Virus record (IMG/VR): IMGVR_UViG_3300025120_013163
Span: 1-53,008 of that record
Direction: 5' to 3' (one strand)
DNA length: 53,008 bases
Source: a virus
Taxonomy: Duplodnaviria > Caudoviricetes
The notes below the pieces were generated by a model. The model had not been told where the DNA came from and did not search any database. It saw only the letters and a program-made list of their open reading frames with translations. This document shows positions 4,342-53,008 of the stretch, piece by piece. The position numbers and the translations under genes are program-made. Position 1 is the stretch's first letter; each line of letters starts with the position of its first letter.

Positions 4342-6021
4342 ATGTATAAAAAAGCATTTGCAAGACGTATTAAAGGTAATAAACATTTAATACATTTATG
4401 GACAGATGAAGGTTATGAAAAAGTAGAATGGGACAATCAAGCTTACATTGAATGTCCTGATCATGAAGCAACTTTTACTGGGTTAAATGGCGAACCATTA
4501 AAGAAAACTAAATATTGGAATAATGAAGATAGTAGGATTCATTTTGGTGATATGCCTGCTCATCAAAAATTTCTAATTGAAAAGTATGGTATTGATGATA
4601 CCCCATCTACAACTCATAGAGAATTATTTTTTGATATTGAGTGTGAAATGGGGGATGCTTTAACCCCTGAATACATTCAAAGTGCTCCCAAAAGAATTAC
4701 ATCAATTGCTTGGTATGATAAACAAATGGACCAGTGGGGTATTGTTATTTTAGATGAAAAAAAACAATTAAAACATACTAAAACTAAAAACAACAAAGAA
4801 ATTATTCCTTGTGGGGATGAAACTGAATTATTAAGTAAATTCTTAGAGCGATTTAGAGATATTGATCCTGATATTATTGTAGGATGGAATAGTGATTATT
4901 TTGATATTCCCTATTTATATTATAGATTATGTAATGTTTTAGGTCAGGATTTTGCTAGATTTTTATCTCCCATAGGTTATGTAAGAGAAACACCTTGGTA
5001 TAAAGACCAATATATTCAAATATGTGGGGTTGAATCTTTAGATTATATGCGTTTACATAAAAAATATAGTTGGGCAGATGAACCTTCAATGAGATTAGAT
5101 GCAATTGGAGAGAAATATGTTGGGATGAATAAAATTGAGTATGAAGGTAATTTAGATGATTTATTTAACACTGATATTCAGAAATTTATTAGGTATAATT
5201 TTGTGGATGTTGAAATATTAAAATTATTAGATGAAAAATTAGATTATTTAGCTTTAACAAAAAATCTAGCTCATAAAGGAAAACATAATTATAGTGAAGT
5301 ATATGCTAATACTAAAACACAAGATGGAGCAATTTCAGCTTATTTATTAAGTAAAAAAATAATTCCACCTGCTAAAGATCGTAATCCTATTCATAAAAAA
5401 GGATATGCTGGTGGTTATTTATTTTGTCCCCAAGCTGGTTTATATAATTATATGTTTGATGAGGATTTAACATCACTATACCCCTCAATTATTATGACTG
5501 TTAATATCGGTAAAGAAACAATGGTAGCTAGAATTATTGATGCTGATGACAGAAATAATAGATTAGGATTAAATGATTTAAAAGCTAAAGATCCTAAAGA
5601 AGAAATATTAATCGAAAACATTAAACGTAAACGTACTAAAGTTACTATAGGAGATTTAATTGGATTTATTGAAAAAAATAATTGGGCTATCTCAGCAAAT
5701 GGTGTTATGTTTAGTACAAATCGTGAATCAGTATTATCAACTATATTAAATAAATGGTTTGATGAAAGAGTATTGTATAAAAATAAAATGAAAAAAGCAT
5801 ATAAATCAGGTAATAAAGAACTGGGTGCTGCTTATCACATGAAACAATATACTATGAAAATTTTATTAAATAGTTTATATGGTGCTACTGCATTAGGTTC
5901 GTTTAGATATGGTAATGTAGTGTTATCTGAAGCTATTACATTAAGTGGTCAGCGTATTATCCAAGAAAGTGCTTTATGCGCTAATAGACATATGAATAAA
6001 GTAATTAAAGGAAAAATATGA
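4342..6021 (+). CDS. family B DNA polymerase, N-terminal part (exonuclease, motifs A and B)
   Basis: FFDIE, GWNSDYFDIPY, YNFVDV, DLTSLYPSII and KILLNSLYG. Confidence 0.95.
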   Translation: MYKKAFARRIKGNKHLIHLWTDEGYEKVEWDNQAYIECPDHEATFTGLNGEPLKKTKYWNNEDSRIHFGDMPAHQKFLIEKYGIDDTPSTTHRELFFDIECEMGDALTPEYIQSAPKRITSIAWYDKQMDQWGIVILDEKKQLKHTKTKNNKEIIPCGDETELLSKFLERFRDIDPDIIVGWNSDYFDIPYLYYRLCNVLGQDFARFLSPIGYVRETPWYKDQYIQICGVESLDYMRLHKKYSWADEPSMRLDAIGEKYVGMNKIEYEGNLDDLFNTDIQKFIRYNFVDVEILKLLDEKLDYLALTKNLAHKGKHNYSEVYANTKTQDGAISAYLLSKKIIPPAKDRNPIHKKGYAGGYLFCPQAGLYNYMFDEDLTSLYPSIIMTVNIGKETMVARIIDADDRNNRLGLNDLKAKDPKEEILIENIKRKRTKVTIGDLIGFIEKNNWAISANGVMFSTNRESVLSTILNKWFDERVLYKNKMKKAYKSGNKELGAAYHMKQYTMKILLNSLYGATALGSFRYGNVVLSEAITLSGQRIIQESALCANRHMNKVIKGKI

Positions 6022-6947
6022 AACACTTAGAAGATACTCCATGGTGGATTTGCGACCCAGGTGATGTAAATTATTGCGCTTATGTTGATACAGATTCCAA
6101 TTATTTTAATGCAGAACCCTTACTAAGACATTTGTATCCTAACTTTGATGAAATGTCTGATTCAGAACGAGATACTGTTTTAGAAAAAGAAGCACTTAAA
6201 TATCAAGATATTATAACAAATGATTATGATAAATTAGCTAAAGAATGTTTTAATGTCACTTCTCACAGATTAGAAATGAAAACTGAATGTGTGATTAGAT
6301 CAGCTTATTTTAGAGCTACAAGACGTTATGCACAATGGATTACTAAACAAGAAGGTATTGAAAATGAAATATTAGATGTAAAGGGATTAGAATTTAAAAA
6401 AGCTAATTTCCCCCCTGTATTTGGTAAATTTTTTAAAAGTTGTTTAGAACAAGTACTTAAAGGAGTACCTAAACATGAGATTGATTCTCAATTATTAGAA
6501 TTTAGAAGACAAATATTGAGTGGGGAAATACCTTTAGAAAAAATAGGAAATCCCCAAGCCGTTAAAAAGTTAAATAAATTTACAGAACGTAAAGCTCGTG
6601 CTGGAGAAATGTTTTCTTCAATAGGTAAAGGAGCACCTGCTGCTGTTAAAGCTTCTATCATTTATAATGACCTATTAAGGTTTTGGAAATTAGATAAAAA
6701 GTATAGTTATATCACTCAAGGAGAAAAAATTAAGTGGATTTATTTAAAAAATAATCCTTATAGAATTGATGCTATTGCTTTCCTAGATTATGATATACCA
6801 AAACAAATTCGTACATTTATTGAGCAATATGCTGATAGACAAAAAGTGTTTGAAAGTATACTATTAAATAAGTTAGAGGGATTTTATAATGATCTAGGTT
6901 GGTCATTAAGTTTAAACCCCCATAGAAATAAATTTTTTAATTTTTAA
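6018..6947 (+). CDS. family B DNA polymerase, C-terminal part (motif C, thumb)
   Basis: YVDTDS, RRYA, VKGLE; ATGA overlap with the upstream half. Confidence 0.93.
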   Translation: MKHLEDTPWWICDPGDVNYCAYVDTDSNYFNAEPLLRHLYPNFDEMSDSERDTVLEKEALKYQDIITNDYDKLAKECFNVTSHRLEMKTECVIRSAYFRATRRYAQWITKQEGIENEILDVKGLEFKKANFPPVFGKFFKSCLEQVLKGVPKHEIDSQLLEFRRQILSGEIPLEKIGNPQAVKKLNKFTERKARAGEMFSSIGKGAPAAVKASIIYNDLLRFWKLDKKYSYITQGEKIKWIYLKNNPYRIDAIAFLDYDIPKQIRTFIEQYADRQKVFESILLNKLEGFYNDLGWSLSLNPHRNKFFNF

Positions 6948-9302: not shown

Positions 9303-10940
9303 ATGAGTAAAATTATAGAATTTGGCCCTGAGGGTAGAAATAAATTAGTAAAAGGAATTGACACATTAGCTAATGCTGTAGTATCAACATTAGGTCCTAA
9401 TGGGAGAAATGTAGTAGTTGAAAGACCTAACCAATCACCAATATCAACAAAAGATGGAGTTACAGTAGCAAAACATATAAGTGTGAGTGATCCTGTTGAA
9501 AATTTAGGTGTAAATTTAGTTAGAGAAGCATCTATTAAAACAGCTGATAAAGCTGGTGATGGTACAACTACATCAACCCTTTTAGCAAGAGAAATGATTA
9601 AAGATGGTTTACAATATTTAGCTAATGGAGCTAATGCTGTTGAAATTAAAAGAGGTATTGATAAAGCAGTAAAAGAAGTTATAAATAATCTAAGAGAAAA
9701 TATATCAGAAGACATTTCAGATGAAAATCAATTAGAACAAATTGCAACTATTTCAGCAAATAATGACCCTGAAGTAGGTAAATTAATAGCTACAGCAATG
9801 GATAAAGTAGGGGTTGAAGGTGTAGTTCATATTGAAGAATCTAAAACAGGAGATACTTATTTAGAAACTGTTGAAGGGATGCAGTTTGATAGAGGTTATT
9901 TGTCACATTATTTTGTTACTAATAATAGCACTATGACTTGTACTTTAGAAGACCCTTATATCTTAGTACTAAACCAAAAGTTATCTTCAGTAAAAGATTT
10001 ATTACCTATGTTAGAAGCAGTTTCTAATACTAATAAATCTTTATTAATCATAGCTGAAGATGTTGATAGTGAAGCTTTAGCAACTCTTATTGTAAATAAA
10101 GCTAGAGGTACTATTAAAGTAGCAGCTGTAAAAGCACCTGATTTTGGTGATAGAAGGAAATTAATCCTAGAAGATATAGCTTCAGTAACAGGAGGTCAGG
10201 TATTTGATAAGGATAAAGGAATGAAACTTGATAAATTTTCTTGGGAGTGGTTTGGTGAAGCACGTACTGTAACTATTTCAAAAGAAAAAACAACTATTAT
10301 TGATGGTAAAGGAGATGAAGAATCTGTTAAACAAAGATTAGAAGAACTTACTACTCAAATTGATAAAGCACAATCATCTTTTGAAATTGAAAAATTACAA
10401 GAAAGATTAGCTAAAATGGCTGGTGGTGTTTCTATTATTCATGTTGGTGGTTATACCGAAACTGAAATGAATGAAAAGAAAGATAGAGTTGATGATGCTT
10501 TACATGCAACTAAAGCTGCTATTGAGGAAGGAATTGTACCCGGAGGAGGAGCAGCTTTATTATATGCTAGAGAAACTATACTAACAGGATGTAAAAAATG
10601 TATAGGTAAAAATATTGTTTATAAAGCTTGTGGTAAACCATTTGAACAAATATTAGTTAATGCCGGTAAAGATTCAGTTGAAGCCCAAATGATAGGTAAA
10701 TACCATTTAGTTGATTCTGGTAATGATACTTGGGCTGGATATAACATTAAAACAGATAATGTTGAAGATATGAAACAAACAGGTATTATTGATCCTACTA
10801 AAGTAACAAGAACAGCTCTTGAAAACGCTGCTGCTGTTGCTGGAACTGTATTACTTACAGAATGTATAGTTGTTGATGAACCTAAAGAAGATACTCCACA
10901 ACCACAAATGGACCCATCAATGATGGGAATGGGAATGTAA
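9303..10940 (+). CDS. groEL: chaperonin GroEL
   Basis: TLGPNGRNV, TKDGVTVA, AGDGTTT, EGMQFDRGY, GIVPGGG; Met/Gly tail. Confidence 0.98.
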   Translation: MSKIIEFGPEGRNKLVKGIDTLANAVVSTLGPNGRNVVVERPNQSPISTKDGVTVAKHISVSDPVENLGVNLVREASIKTADKAGDGTTTSTLLAREMIKDGLQYLANGANAVEIKRGIDKAVKEVINNLRENISEDISDENQLEQIATISANNDPEVGKLIATAMDKVGVEGVVHIEESKTGDTYLETVEGMQFDRGYLSHYFVTNNSTMTCTLEDPYILVLNQKLSSVKDLLPMLEAVSNTNKSLLIIAEDVDSEALATLIVNKARGTIKVAAVKAPDFGDRRKLILEDIASVTGGQVFDKDKGMKLDKFSWEWFGEARTVTISKEKTTIIDGKGDEESVKQRLEELTTQIDKAQSSFEIEKLQERLAKMAGGVSIIHVGGYTETEMNEKKDRVDDALHATKAAIEEGIVPGGGAALLYARETILTGCKKCIGKNIVYKACGKPFEQILVNAGKDSVEAQMIGKYHLVDSGNDTWAGYNIKTDNVEDMKQTGIIDPTKVTRTALENAAAVAGTVLLTECIVVDEPKEDTPQPQMDPSMMGMGM

Positions 10941-50271: not shown

Positions 50272-50427
50272 ATGGTAGATGTTTTAGCAGGTATTGGTGT
50301 AATTGCGCTAGTTATTGGTGCAGGAATTTTCGTTAATTATATGGAGAATGTAGATGATAAACGTAAGCAAGATAGAAATGATGATTATGTTGAAGATGAT
50401 GATTGGTGGAATGATCAAGAAGCATGA
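50272..50427 (+). CDS. small membrane protein with acidic tail (51 aa)
   Basis: ataggttATG50272; MVDVLAGIGVIALVIGAGIFV...DDYVEDDDWW. Confidence 0.6.
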   Translation: MVDVLAGIGVIALVIGAGIFVNYMENVDDKRKQDRNDDYVEDDDWWNDQEA

Positions 50428-50654
50428 GACGAATCAAGGAGGTAAAGTGGAAGCGTAAGTGTGTTATGTGTGAGGAAGTAAATTCAGCGTGGATTGAGAT
50501 TACGGTGAAGACGGAAGGTAAAGACAAACACATTATATGTGAGCCGTGTTTAACTAAAATACTTTCATTAGATCATTGGGGAATAAAGGTACATCGCATA
50601 GCTAAAAAGTGGGCATTTCCTGAGTGGATGCTTGATAGAATTAAGAGTAAATAA
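50424..50654 (+). CDS. small zinc-binding protein
   Basis: CVMC...CEPC; ATGA overlap with the upstream ORF. Confidence 0.6.
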   Translation: MRRIKEVKWKRKCVMCEEVNSAWIEITVKTEGKDKHIICEPCLTKILSLDHWGIKVHRIAKKWAFPEWMLDRIKSK

Positions 50655-51906
50655 GCGTATTAAATTAAGTGACTTTGGTAGCGATTAATGCAATGGCTGG
50701 CTAAAGTGAATAATAATTGGACAATAAAAAACGCTGGATAACGTAAAGCGTTGTGTGGGCTCCATTTCCAACCCGTTAAGTAGGACAAACTATAATCAAT
50801 TATGACAAGTAAATGGCAAGCAGCAATTGCATGTGACAATAGATGATGGGGTTATATGACACAAATTATGAGTGGTGCTAGCCCCCATTTGATGCGCATC
50901 CAAACTCTACTATAGTTACCAAATATATACTTGTACAGCACATATGTTCATAAATTTTCATAACAATTCACAAAGAAATGTGTGGAATGGCGTGGATATG
51001 TGGGGGAGATTGCGTATATTGGGGTAAATAATGGCATTACAGCCGTTGGGAAGCATACTACGGTGACGATGCTAGCGGTGAGCAGTACCTTAATACATAA
51101 TAAACCGTACCCTATTATTAATTATTAGTTAATTACGTCGCACCTAGTGGTACCTGGGTTAGTACCTTATACTATACTATCTTCACCGTATGCGTTACTG
51201 GATTCGATACAACTATTACTATTATATCTACTACATACCTACGCTTAGCGGGCGTACCGCCGCCGTACTACATAATAATACCCACCGTGCGCAGATATCC
51301 ATATGGCGTGGATACGCGATAGAAAGGATGTGGACCACTTTAAAGATCGTAAACGACCTTAACCCATCGATTGTATATACTTATATCATTGATCGCCTCC
51401 CACATTAATTTATTGATGATTTTATAAAGTTACCACCGGATGAGTATATATTGATATAGGGTACCGGTGGTTGAATGTAATCTTCACCGTTACATTCTTC
51501 ACCGTCGCTGGAATAATAATTATCATATCACCTCCTTGGAAAACTTTTGTAAACCAATTTCGTCATCATTAAGTCATACATGCGTACCACCCTAGTACAA
51601 TTTATTTACCATTTAATATTCCAGCTCAAACTATATATAACCATGAATATAGAAAAAAATAGAGTAGACGTATCATCAGCCCTATATGTAATTATTATGG
51701 TGGTGGTTTTTACACTAGCGTTAAATTATTAAACCCCATTTCCCATATGGGTAAGGGTTTGGGGAATTTAACATCCTCAAATCACTTTTTTTATAAAATT
51801 TTTAACATGGCATGAATATATACGTATCTAGGTATGCGGGTATGCTAAGAGGAAGAGTTCTTAGACGACTTTATGAATTTAGTAATATTTATAATAAAAT
51901 TATATT
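50655..51906. other. long structured noncoding region (candidate origin, packaging/terminal region or ncRNA)
   Basis: only large gene-free stretch; GC-richer; many hairpins; oriented TCTTCACCGT and GTACC repeats. Confidence 0.6.
50992..51030 (+). promoter_or_regulatory. variant of the repeated promoter with no downstream ORF
   Basis: gtgg-atatgtgggggagat-tgcgtatatt...gtaaata with 15-nt spacer. Confidence 0.6.
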
Positions 51907-52335
51907 ATGCCACTTACTCTTAACTTTTCTTCTGCACAACTAAATGGAGCAGGGAGTTTAATAGGTTCACAATTACAAAATAATCAACCTCAAACCCCTT
52001 ATTTGTTTACTATATATTATCCTAATGCGGGAAGTGGTACTGCATATTTTAATATAGGAGTTGCCCCAAATAATAATGGAAATTTTAGTGGAAGCTTTAG
52101 TGGAAGTTTTTCTACTGGAAGTTTTGGATTTACTGGATCTTTATCTGGTTCATTTATAACTAGTTCTGGAATTAATTTAAATGGATATATCTCTTCAAAT
52201 TATATAAATAGTGTAGTTATTTCATTACCAACTCAATCCTTTCAATTAGCTCCTCTAAATGTTATTCAACCCAATACTTTAAATGTTAGTGGAACTGGTG
52301 GTATTTATTTGGTTATTGAGTCAAATGATGCATAA
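51907..52335 (+). CDS. Gly/Ser-rich beta-type protein, possibly structural
   Basis: GNFSGSFSGSFSTGSFGFTGSLSGSF repeats; almost no charged residues. Confidence 0.6.
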   Translation: MPLTLNFSSAQLNGAGSLIGSQLQNNQPQTPYLFTIYYPNAGSGTAYFNIGVAPNNNGNFSGSFSGSFSTGSFGFTGSLSGSFITSSGINLNGYISSNYINSVVISLPTQSFQLAPLNVIQPNTLNVSGTGGIYLVIESNDA

Positions 52336-52341
52336 GTTTTA

Positions 52342-52391
52342 AAAGTAATGCGCAGGAGGCTTGGATACCCGAGAGAGCTTTCGTATATTTA
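52342..52391 (+). promoter_or_regulatory. repeated promoter, 50-nt copy A
   Basis: 48/50 identical to 52686-52735. Confidence 0.88.
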
Positions 52392-52440
52392 TGTCATAAA
52401 TGAGTGCAAAACGCACACATACTAATAAAAAATAAAGGTT

Positions 52441-52692: not shown

Positions 52693-52735
52693 TGCGCAGG
52701 AAGCTTGGATACCTGAGAGAGCTTTCGTATATTTA
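52686..52735 (+). promoter_or_regulatory. repeated promoter, 50-nt copy B
   Basis: aaagtaatgcgcaggaagcttgg-N15-ttcgtatattta. Confidence 0.88.
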
Positions 52736-52787
52736 CGGTATAAATAAGTACAAAACACACAAAAACTAATTAAAAAAAATAAAAGTT

Positions 52788-53008
52788 ATGATCAATATAG
52801 AAGATTTACAATCAGCAAAATTTATGAGTAAGGAGGAAATTAGTAAAGTAGCTCCTTCAGTATTTACAATGAATCCTTCAGATGAGGTATCAGATAAATA
52901 TACTCATATTCCAACAGAAGAAGTTATTAATGATATGGAAGAATTAGGTTGGGGAGTTGTTGATGCAAAAGAAGTTAAAGCTAGAACTAAATCAACAAAA
53001 GGATTCCA
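52788..53008 (+). CDS. DUF932/DUF945-like protein (3' truncated)
   Basis: APSVFT....VSDKYTHIPTEEVI..M...GW; aaaagttATG leader. Confidence 0.75.
   Translation, partial: MINIEDLQSAKFMSKEEISKVAPSVFTMNPSDEVSDKYTHIPTEEVINDMEELGWGVVDAKEVKARTKSTKGF

What the first reader, a model, noticed from the sequence alone, without database searches (positions are those of the whole stretch)
50655..51906. 1.25-kb structured noncoding island: candidate origin/packaging site or large ncRNA
Seen: this is the only long gene-free stretch in an otherwise gap-free genome, and it is visibly more GC-rich. By eye the + strand is G-rich up to ~51080 and C-rich after it, around an AT-rich core (51091-51135). Inverted repeats are dense: aacgct/agcgtt 50730-50752, atgggg/ccccat 50846-50888, gatgcgcatc 50891-50900, gcgg/ccgc 51248-51260, tatcca/tggata 51296-51314, accaccgg/ccggtggt 51432-51471, gaatgtaa/ttacattc 51473-51497, aaaccc..cccatatggg..gggttt 51731-51760, ctaaga/tcttag 51845-51864. 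Inference: a replication origin, a genome-end/terminase region, or a structured RNA.
Basis: partly seen in the sequence, partly recalled or inferred. Interest (0 to 1): 0.8.

Follow-up and report, generated by a model that had tools for sequence, protein, structure and literature searches.

The report
Conserved gene-free island in marine phage
A 1.25-kb stretch without genes in an uncultured marine T4-like phage is real and strongly conserved in relatives, but it is not unusually folded, and it looks most like a promoter-driven noncoding transcription unit of unknown role.

Summary
The island (50655-51906) is the longest ORF-poor stretch of this 53-kb phage fragment. It has 36% GC against 27.5% elsewhere, and its G/C skew flips near 51080. 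All nine listed inverted repeats exist, but hairpin density, folding energies and palindrome counts equal dinucleotide shuffles, and no helix has solid covariation. Rfam and ARAGORN find nothing, and no frame or recoding gives a gene.

The strong signal is conservation. A core (51229-51386) is on average 91% identical in relatives whose neighbouring segments are 61-72% identical. A looser version of the core, ending in the same 20-mer (51367-51386), occurs in 17 more distant phage loci.

The island carries one of eight copies of the phage's recurrent sigma-70-like promoter cassette (50989-51035). It is the only copy not followed by a gene. A 29-codon membrane mini-ORF and an intrinsic terminator lie at the right end.

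Best reading (0.42): a + strand noncoding or leader transcription unit whose 3' block is conserved as sequence, not as fold. A T4-type promoter-plus-AT-tract origin is the main rival (0.22). Genes and GC skew keep the same direction on both sides, and contigs run through the island, so a genome end is unlikely.

The parts
50655..51906 (.). Whole ORF-poor, GC-enriched island between a 76-aa zinc-ribbon-like gene (50424-50654) and a 142-aa gene (51907-52335)
50740..50988 (+). Left conserved block, G-rich on +. It holds the hairpin ATGGGG...CCCCAT and the block TTTGATGCGCATCC...TATATACTTGT. Most relatives have a GTGAAC-N7-GTTCAC stem-loop just before the promoter cassette, degenerate in the window.
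   Evidence: Alignment; identity to window 78-85%; homologous blocks in distant L067 and L068 (read by eye)
50989..51035 (+). Copy of the phage's recurrent promoter cassette: GGCNTGGATA-N14-CGTATATT followed by GTAAATAA. It is the only one of 8 copies not followed by a gene; only an 11-codon ORF starts at 51030.
   Evidence: 8 hits, all on +, 0.06 expected; contexts; same cassette 302-387 nt upstream of the core in 5 distant loci
51091..51135 (.). AT-rich tract (18% GC) where the local G/C skew changes sign. It is kept as an AT-rich stretch, not as sequence, in relatives.
   Evidence: not unusual for the genome (12.4% of 45-nt windows)
51180..51189 (+). First of three direct TCTTCACCGT repeats (others at 51481-51490 and 51496-51505). 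Inverted copies lie at 51060-51069 (1 mismatch) and at 50502-50511 inside the upstream gene.
   Evidence: 6 hits in the record against 1.2 +/- 1.15 expected; 5 lie in 50502-51505
51229..51386 (+). Ultra-conserved core. It is C-rich then G-rich and rich in alternating purine/pyrimidine steps.
   Evidence: Mean 91.4% identity to the window in 20 relatives, against 61-72% in neighbouring segments; recognisable in 17 more distant loci; alternation 0.61 against 0.47 in the rest
51367..51386 (+). Invariant 20-mer TCGATTGTATATACTTATAT that ends the core. Sequence similarity among relatives drops right after it.
   Evidence: Invariant in 18 of 18 rows of A2, which were found with other probes; used as probe; three contig joints start at 51386 (weak)
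51387..51437 (+). Variable segment that in most sequence types forms its own hairpin. In the window this is ATCATTGAT...ATTGATGAT followed by TTTTAT. The distant loci L068 and L069 have canonical intrinsic terminators here.
   Evidence: 63% identity; hairpins read by eye; terminators
51438..51580 (+). Second conserved block. The + strand reads ATCACCTCCTT; the - strand reads AAGGAGGTGATATG in front of a 34-codon ORF that shows no coding signature.
   Evidence: 87.5% identity; 10 synonymous, 62 non-synonymous and 3 stop changes in its frame; start codon lost in some relatives (by eye)
51643..51732 (+). 29-codon mini-ORF with a hydrophobic helix (MNIEKNRVDVSSALYVIIMVVVFTLALNY). It is kept open in relatives, with in-frame indels.
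   Evidence: highest synonymous fraction of any frame in the island (0.30); no PHROG match
51756..51793 (+). Intrinsic-terminator-like hairpin (10 pairs) followed by a T-run, preceded by the CCCATATGGG palindrome
   Evidence: T-run and a stem kept in relatives with a different stem sequence (by eye)

Best explanation
The island is an ORF-less transcription unit on the + strand, in the variable (hyperplastic-type) part of an uncultured marine T4-like phage.

Proposed layout. A copy of the phage's own recurrent sigma-70-like promoter cassette (50989-51035) fires rightwards. The transcript crosses a G-rich start, an AT-rich tract and a C-rich stretch, then the conserved core (51229-51386). It ends either at the variable hairpin just after the invariant 20-mer (about 350-400 nt) or at the intrinsic terminator at 51756-51793 (about 760 nt). 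The longer form includes the 29-codon membrane mini-ORF.

Proposed mode of action. The core is constrained as primary sequence, not as a stable fold. I therefore infer that the RNA, or the same DNA, acts by being recognised in sequence-specific fashion: by a protein, or by base pairing.

Shown: absence of genes; conservation; membership of the promoter motif family; terminator-like hairpins; the same order of blocks in distant relatives.

Inferred: that the cassette is an active promoter; the strand; the transcript ends; any function of the RNA.
For: (1) The promoter cassette occurs 8 times in the record, all on the coding strand, against 0.06 expected. Seven copies sit 15-70 nt before a start codon, while the copy at 50989 is followed by about 620 nt without a gene.

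(2) The arrangement 'cassette, then 300-390 nt without an ORF of 40 aa or more, then core' recurs in distant loci L070, L072, L075 and L081, and in L077 with a 59-aa ORF. In L067, L068, L071 and L084 an ORF of 77-166 aa sits between cassette and core. Overall a same-strand cassette was found upstream of the core in 9 of 17 distant loci. Four of the other 8 have less than 170 nt of upstream sequence.

(3) + strand intrinsic terminators lie 20-45 nt after the 20-mer in L069 (9 pairs, 6 G-C, T-run) and L068. The window has a terminator-like site at 51756-51793.

(4) The core averages 91.4% identity against 61-72% in neighbouring segments. No frame shows a coding signature.

(5) One-sided changes keep pairing only if the + strand is read. 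In a proposed helix between GCGTGTATATGTGA and the 20-mer, 92% of cells pair. Four variable columns show only U.G/C-G or A-U/G.U alternation. The same holds for CG-to-UG and GC-to-GU changes.

(6) Contigs from RNA libraries X17 and X18 cover the island, for example 50871-51169 and 51289-51612. This shows presence only.
Against: There is no direct evidence of transcription, its strand or its ends. The RNA-library data are contigs and may include DNA.

The core and the whole island are not more stably folded than shuffles: z = +0.14 for 51136-51432, and z from -2.94 to +1.81 in 11 family members, with only 2 below -2. Consensus folding over the wider family finds almost nothing.

The proposed helix has no double compensatory change. 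One column is unpaired in 14 of 27 rows, and the structure was derived from one of the rows.

G/C and A/T skew of 51075-51700 is the reverse of that of the phage's + strand genes, which could point to the - strand as the sense strand. The strong hairpins of L067 and L068 fold equally well on both strands.

An unstructured, sequence-conserved element fits a DNA site as well as an RNA.
Confidence: 0.42

Rival explanations
1. T4-type replication origin. [quoted passage not shown] The repeated TCTTCACCGT sites and the core would bind phage factors.
For: A promoter cassette lies about 60 nt upstream of an 18% GC tract. A G-rich then AT-rich order is also seen after the cassette in 5 distant loci. 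TCTTCACCGT is clustered: 5 of 6 hits in the record lie in 1 kb, direct on one side and inverted on the other. The phage is T4-like: PolB is 30-33% identical to Mel-JY01 and KVP40-type phages. The T4 review (PMC3016281, passages read) says that oriF and oriG need only a promoter plus a DUE, that oriE uses an early promoter and has iterons, and that oriA and oriC lie outside skew shifts. Missing skew inflection is therefore not decisive.
Against: The AT tract is ordinary for this genome (12.4% of 45-nt windows). The repeats are not evenly spaced (spacing 301 and 15 nt), and the third copy varies among relatives. Per the same review, T4 R-loop origins need no specific sequence, so the 158-nt ultra-conserved core would be unexplained. 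There is no strand switch or skew shift. In L067, L068, L071 and L084 a gene separates the cassette from the core. The + transcript is G-poor over the core; that this disfavours a persistent hybrid is an inference from general knowledge.
Confidence: 0.22
2. A mosaic of regulatory cassettes and leftovers with no function of its own as a unit. Promoter and terminator cassettes of the PeSL kind, which flank swappable genes in T4-like hyperplastic regions, remain here after loss of the genes between them. Their similarity would be kept by frequent recombination among co-occurring phages.
For: PeSLs are composite stem-loop plus sigma-70-like promoter elements that act as exchange points in hyperplastic regions of T4-like phages (PMC4122927: abstract and passages read). 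The window has 8 such promoter cassettes. What follows the island differs among relatives. Distant relatives carry ORFs between cassette and core, and in 11 of 17 a - strand ORF of 100 aa or more lies after the core, which the window clade lacks. Many contigs break inside the core: among others L010, L018, L016, L043, L052, L055, L058, L059, L060, L066, L069, L073, L076 and L080. Such breaks are expected where different genomes share a sequence. Only an 11-codon ORF remains after the cassette.
Against: The core is single-copy in the record and far longer than a promoter or terminator. It is conserved well beyond the cassettes themselves (91% against 69% for the cassette segment). The block order from cassette to 20-mer is kept across distant lineages. 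tblastn finds no remnants of the relatives' - strand genes in the island (all E > 0.1).
Confidence: 0.2
3. A large, stably folded RNA (ribozyme, riboswitch-like leader, or a GOLLD/ROOL-type giant RNA).
For: GC enrichment in an AT-rich genome together with strong conservation is the usual signature of structured RNA genes. The right blocks of the distant relatives L068 and L067 fold better than shuffles (z = -4.87 and -3.16).
Against: There is no Rfam match at gathering score in the whole record, and only one chance-level hit at E <= 10. The relatives give only sub-threshold terminator-type hits. There is no tRNA or tmRNA. Folding z-scores are near 0. Alignment-fold z-scores are -0.9 to -2.6 on + in three blocks and +0.2 in a fourth. 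Covariation is negligible. L067 and L068 fold equally well on the opposite strand.
Confidence: 0.06
4. Packaging site or physical genome end.
For: Many assemblies break in the island, and the island lies 1.1 kb from the end of this record.
Against: Nine distinct relatives' contigs cross the whole island with genes on both sides. The break points are scattered over at least 700 nt. No repeat of the island exists elsewhere in the record. [quoted passage not shown]
Confidence: 0.03

Closest known systems
PeSL elements (promoter-early stem-loop cassettes) of T4-like phages (Arbiol 2010; Comeau 2014, PMC4122927)
   Same: A recurrent sigma-70-like promoter cassette lies in the intergenic regions of a T4-like phage, on the coding strand. 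It sits in a region where neighbouring genes differ between relatives. Most relatives have a stem-loop just upstream of the island's copy.
   Different: PeSLs are short and are directly followed by a ribosome-binding site and a gene. Here the cassette is followed by about 350 nt of conserved noncoding sequence, with a 158-nt core that is single-copy and better conserved than the cassette.
T4 replication origins oriF/oriG (promoter plus A+T-rich DUE, R-loop primed) and oriE (early promoter plus iterons), as reviewed in PMC3016281
   Same: A promoter is followed by an AT-rich tract. Short repeats are clustered. The host phage is T4-like.
   Different: No MotA-type promoter was identified. The AT tract is not exceptional for the genome. 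The repeats are not evenly spaced. T4 origins share no conserved sequence, whereas this element is defined by one. Origin activity is untested.
Stable small RNAs of phage T4 (RNA C and RNA D), and 3'-UTR-derived small RNAs of bacteria (recalled, not from a call)
   Same: A noncoding transcript with a conserved 3' part ending at a hairpin or terminator, function unknown or acting by sequence.
   Different: No sequence similarity was tested or known. This element is longer, and no RNA has been observed.
Large structured RNAs found in phages and metagenomes (GOLLD, ROOL, HEARO in Rfam)
   Same: A GC-rich, conserved, noncoding stretch of several hundred nt in an AT-rich phage genome.
   Different: No Rfam match, and no significant fold or covariation.

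Membership tests
Any Rfam 15 RNA family | Covariance-model score at or above the family's gathering score | tested here: not met
   0 matches in the whole record. At E <= 10 on 50400-52100 there is one hit: 17.8 bits against a gathering score of 154, lying inside the downstream gene. Five relatives give only sub-threshold hits at a terminator.
tRNA / tmRNA | Cloverleaf or tmRNA detected by ARAGORN | tested here: not met
   0 genes in the record
Structured noncoding RNA (generic) | Folding energy below composition-matched shuffles | tested here: not met
   z from -2.3 to +1.8 in 200-nt windows; z = +0.14 for 51136-51432; 2 of 11 family members below -2
Structured noncoding RNA (generic) | Conserved helices supported by compensatory changes | tested here: inconclusive
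   1 of 56 pairs doubly changed. No helix has 2 or more covarying pairs in the close clade. In the wider alignment one 4-bp G/U helix has 3 covarying pairs, with 23 conserved helices against 0-4 in column shuffles, many in TATA/TGTG low-complexity sequence. A proposed helix is 92% paired through one-sided changes only.
Protein-coding gene (standard or recoded) | A conserved open frame with an excess of synonymous change | tested here: not met
   The exception is the 29-codon ORF 51643-51732, which is kept open and has the highest synonymous fraction (0.30).
PeSL cassette | Sigma-70-like -35/-10 promoter motif recurring in intergenic regions | tested here: met
   8 copies on +, 0.06 expected; TGGATA-16-TATATT also flagged by the promoter scan
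PeSL cassette | Stem-loop just upstream of the promoter | tested here: inconclusive
   GTGAAC-N7-GTTCAC (or a 5-bp version) is present in most relatives and in L067 and L068, but is degenerate in the window's own subclade (alignment and sequence, read by eye).
PeSL cassette | Directly followed by the ribosome-binding site and start codon of a gene | tested here: not met
   Only an 11-codon ORF follows the 50989 copy, while the other 7 copies precede genes.
T4 oriF/oriG-type origin | Promoter with an A+T-rich unwinding element just downstream | tested here: inconclusive
   Cassette at 50989-51035 and an 18% GC tract at 51091-51135, but 12.4% of all 45-nt windows are as AT-rich. No MotA box was sought.
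T4 oriF/oriG-type origin | Persistent R-loop and origin activity | not testable with these tools
   Needs infected cells or a plasmid assay.
T4 oriE-type / iteron origin | Cluster of evenly spaced direct repeats | tested here: not met
   TCTTCACCGT occurs 3 times at spacings of 301 and 15 nt, plus inverted copies. Tandem Repeats Finder finds only a 2.2-copy AT repeat at 51113-51135.
Replication origin or terminus marked by skew | Genome-scale GC-skew inflection or switch of gene strand | tested here: not met
   Only 1.1 kb lies beyond the island in the window, but about 6 kb beyond it was examined in L004.
Genome end / pac or cos site | Fixed physical end; contigs do not cross it | tested here: not met
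   9 distinct relatives cross it. Read-start analysis was not possible.

The most novel reading that the evidence does not exclude
The core that ends in TCGATTGTATATACTTATAT, together with the promoter cassette about 350 nt upstream, defines a previously undescribed family of noncoding genes shared by diverse uncultured marine T4-like phages. The product would be either a weakly folded, sequence-read RNA (a decoy, sponge or antisense regulator) or the RNA primer of a sequence-defined origin of replication. Either would be the first such element defined for this phage group.
Probability: 0.3. Interest if true: 0.65.

Novelty: new variant of a known kind. Interest (0 to 1): 0.45.

Why it matters
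Uncultured marine T4-like phages are abundant, but their noncoding parts are almost unannotated. This work gives a single-copy element with clear boundaries, a candidate promoter and terminator, and about 40 homologous loci. The element can be searched for, used as a marker of this phage group, and tested directly by strand-specific transcript mapping, origin mapping or factor binding.

There is also a practical point. The core is so conserved that it breaks metagenome assemblies of these phages. The work further shows that GC enrichment plus visible inverted repeats in an AT-rich genome does not by itself indicate a structured RNA.

Tried and rejected
- Recoded or frameshifted gene: rejected.
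- The - strand 34-codon ORF behind a perfect Shine-Dalgarno-like AAGGAGGTGATATG (51526-51422): no coding signature (10 synonymous, 62 non-synonymous, 3 stops), and the start codon is lost in some relatives (by eye). The phage's own genes mostly lack such sites (by eye).
- The + frame 51122-51319 is stop-free in 5 of 5 compared sequences but has no start codon and no synonymous excess.
- Remnants of the relatives' - strand genes in the island: none.
- Palindrome enrichment: not significant against dinucleotide shuffles (p = 0.08-0.45). The island only has more alternating purine/pyrimidine steps (0.59 against 0.47).
- Zinc-ribbon protein as an obligate partner: present upstream in the close clade, but no tblastn hit in 17 distant loci.
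- INPHARED phages: no DNA match to the island.
- Bacterial and archaeal genomes: the 19-mer gave 0 hits. The 20-mer gave 2 hits, both short contigs that look like phage fragments.
- L048 was a chance match of the 19-mer inside what reads as an ordinary coding region.
- RNA-library depth over the island cannot be read as expression: it sums contigs of many relatives, and DNA may be present.
- Uncovered bins in those runs mean nothing.
- PHROGs and Pfam gave no function for the flanking small proteins.
- Literature searches listed no paper on such an element. Only listings were seen, apart from PMC3016281. Supplementary files could not be read.
- The search of earlier findings was not open.

Full report
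**Context.** The window is a complete IMG/VR record of 53,008 nt. It is linear and rated 12% complete. It has 27.5% GC, and nearly all ORFs of 100 aa or more lie on the + strand. Its family-B DNA polymerase is 30-33% identical to those of T4-like phages (Microcystis phage Mel-JY01, KVP40-type vibriophages, cyanomyophages). I therefore treat it as a fragment of a large, uncultured marine T4-like phage.

**Checking the observation.** The stretch 50655-51906 has no credible gene.
- The longest stop-free run in six frames is 81 codons, and reassigning stop codons does not open a frame.
- The only 72-aa ORF is interrupted in the relatives.
- No frame shows a synonymous excess except a 29-codon ORF at 51643-51732.
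- GC is 36% in the island and 45% in its core.
- The local G/C skew changes sign near 51080.

The repeats are no denser than in dinucleotide shuffles. Folding energies of 200-nt windows are ordinary on both strands, and the AT-rich 'core' is ordinary for a 27% GC genome. Rfam gives nothing at gathering score, or at E <= 10 apart from a chance hit inside the next gene. ARAGORN finds nothing.

**Conservation.**
- Flanking proteins and short DNA probes retrieved the same island from 6 viral contigs and from 20 of 21 metagenome loci. The 21st was a chance match.
- After removing duplicates, 22 distinct sequences were aligned.
- Conservation is uneven. The core 51229-51386 is 91.4% identical to the window on average, and 51438-51580 is 87.5%. 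The segments between and around them are 63-72%, and the ends of the flanking genes are 61-70%.
- Many contigs end inside the core. This is what happens when different co-occurring genomes share a sequence.
- Nine distinct relatives cross the whole island with + strand genes and positive GC skew on both sides. There is no strand switch, skew inflection or genome end.

**Structure.**
- RNAalifold on 18 sequences of the right half gives a covariation term of -0.17, with one doubly changed pair of 56.
- Alignment-shuffle z-scores on the + strand are -0.9 to -2.6 in three blocks and +0.2 in a fourth, and do not separate the strands.
- An all-against-all scan finds no helix with two covarying pairs.

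**Distant relatives.** The invariant 20-mer at the end of the core retrieved 2 loci from genome collections and 15 new viral loci. In these 17 more distant loci a looser version of the core is plainly recognisable.
- Over this wider family RNAalifold finds almost no consensus fold.
- Single-sequence z-scores scatter around zero.
- A hand-built model (a long imperfect hairpin closed by the 20-mer) is 83% paired, against 27-53% for slid controls. It is supported by one-sided transitions only, and one column is unpaired in half of the rows.

The constraint is therefore mainly on primary sequence.

**Anatomy.**
- A motif GGCNTGGATA-N14-CGTATATT followed by GTAAATAA occurs 8 times in the record, always on + (0.06 expected).
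- Seven copies sit just upstream of genes. The eighth, at 50989-51035, lies inside the island and is followed by only an 11-codon ORF.
- This fits the published description of PeSL cassettes in T4-like hyperplastic regions (PMC4122927: abstract and passages).
- In L070, L072, L075, L077 and L081 the same cassette lies 302-387 nt upstream of the 20-mer. The same order of blocks follows it: a G-rich start, an AT-rich stretch, a GGTAC-type motif, ACTGRAT, a C-rich stretch, and the core.
- In L067, L068, L071 and L084 a small gene is inserted after the cassette.
- After the 20-mer, similarity stops. L069 and L068 have canonical terminators there.
- The window has a weak AT-rich hairpin plus TTTTAT there. 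Farther on it has a second conserved block, a conserved 29-codon membrane mini-ORF and a terminator-like site.
- In 11 of 17 distant loci a - strand ORF of 100 aa or more lies after the core: membrane coiled-coil proteins, thioredoxin-like proteins and others, named by eye from the sequences. The window clade lacks it and shows no remnants.

**Interpretation.** The simplest account of a gene-less copy of a promoter cassette, a conserved block order, a sequence-conserved 3' block and hairpins or terminators behind it is an ORF-less + strand transcription unit. I give this 0.42. The RNA has not been seen, because the RNA-library evidence is from contigs and shows presence only. The reversed purine skew of the right half argues for caution about the strand.

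A T4-type origin is the main rival (0.22). T4 oriF and oriG need only a promoter and an AT-rich unwinding element. oriE uses an early promoter and iterons, and some T4 origins lie outside skew shifts (PMC3016281, passages read). The island has a promoter, an AT tract and clustered TCTTCACCGT repeats. Against this, the tract is unexceptional, the repeats are unevenly spaced, and the origin model does not explain the core.

The other readings:
- A mosaic of cassettes kept similar by recombination: 0.20.
- A large folded RNA: 0.06.
- A packaging site or genome end: 0.03.

**Novelty.** There is no Rfam family and no match in the deposited-phage collection. The literature listings I saw show no paper on such an element; supplements were closed. 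The promoter cassettes are a known kind. The single-copy conserved core linked to one of them appears to be undescribed.

Noticed in passing
window 17816, 34673, 39015, 40017, 47614, 50989, 52358, 52702 (all +): A recurrent promoter cassette TTGGATA-N14-TTTCGTATATT, followed a few bases later by a T4-late-promoter-like (T)ATAAATAA. There are 8 copies against 0.06 expected. The copies at 52338-52440 and 52694-52790 are about 90% identical over about 60 nt, and they recur several times in relatives' contigs.
   Followed up: partly
window 4342-6021 and 6018-6947: The family-B DNA polymerase seems to be split. The 559-aa ORF matches only positions 23-202 of 453 of the Pfam polymerase domain. A 309-aa ORF follows with a 4-nt overlap. 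This could be a split gene, a frameshift or an assembly error.
   Followed up: no
window 9303-10940: The phage encodes a full-length Cpn60/GroEL-type chaperonin (Pfam E = 3.9e-70). The record also holds two group-1 glycosyltransferases, a radical SAM protein, an FkbM methyltransferase and an Omp28-like domain protein.
   Followed up: no
L005:6226-6400 and L008:6223-6400 (relatives); absent at window 50655-50740: Relatives carry a 45-53-aa membrane mini-ORF at the left edge of the island. It is deleted in the window's subclade.
   Followed up: partly
L067 and L068 (genome contigs): Two short contigs filed in bacterial MAGs carry the phage cassette, a small phage-type ORF and the core. They look like phage fragments binned with bacterial genomes, so they are no evidence of a host.
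   Followed up: partly
L070, L072, L074, L075, L077, L081, L069 (250-900 nt after the 20-mer, - strand): A conserved 135-162-aa protein with an N-terminal membrane helix, a coiled-coil-like middle and a C-terminal ...DPNxLSRY. It lies convergent to the core in the wider family. It resembles an inner-membrane spanin by layout only; this was not tested.
   Followed up: no
window 51386 (table 5): Three contig joints in RNA-library runs X17 and X18 leave the window sequence exactly at 51386, the last base of the invariant 20-mer, and go to three different downstream places. This is consistent with 51386 being a boundary where relatives diverge. The sides are short, so the evidence is weak.
   Followed up: no
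window 51084-51587: GTACC occurs 7 times on the + strand of the island, by eye count. The island has 15.6 G/C-containing 6-bp palindromes per kb against 5.8 in the rest of the record, which is explained by its alternating purine/pyrimidine composition.
   Followed up: partly
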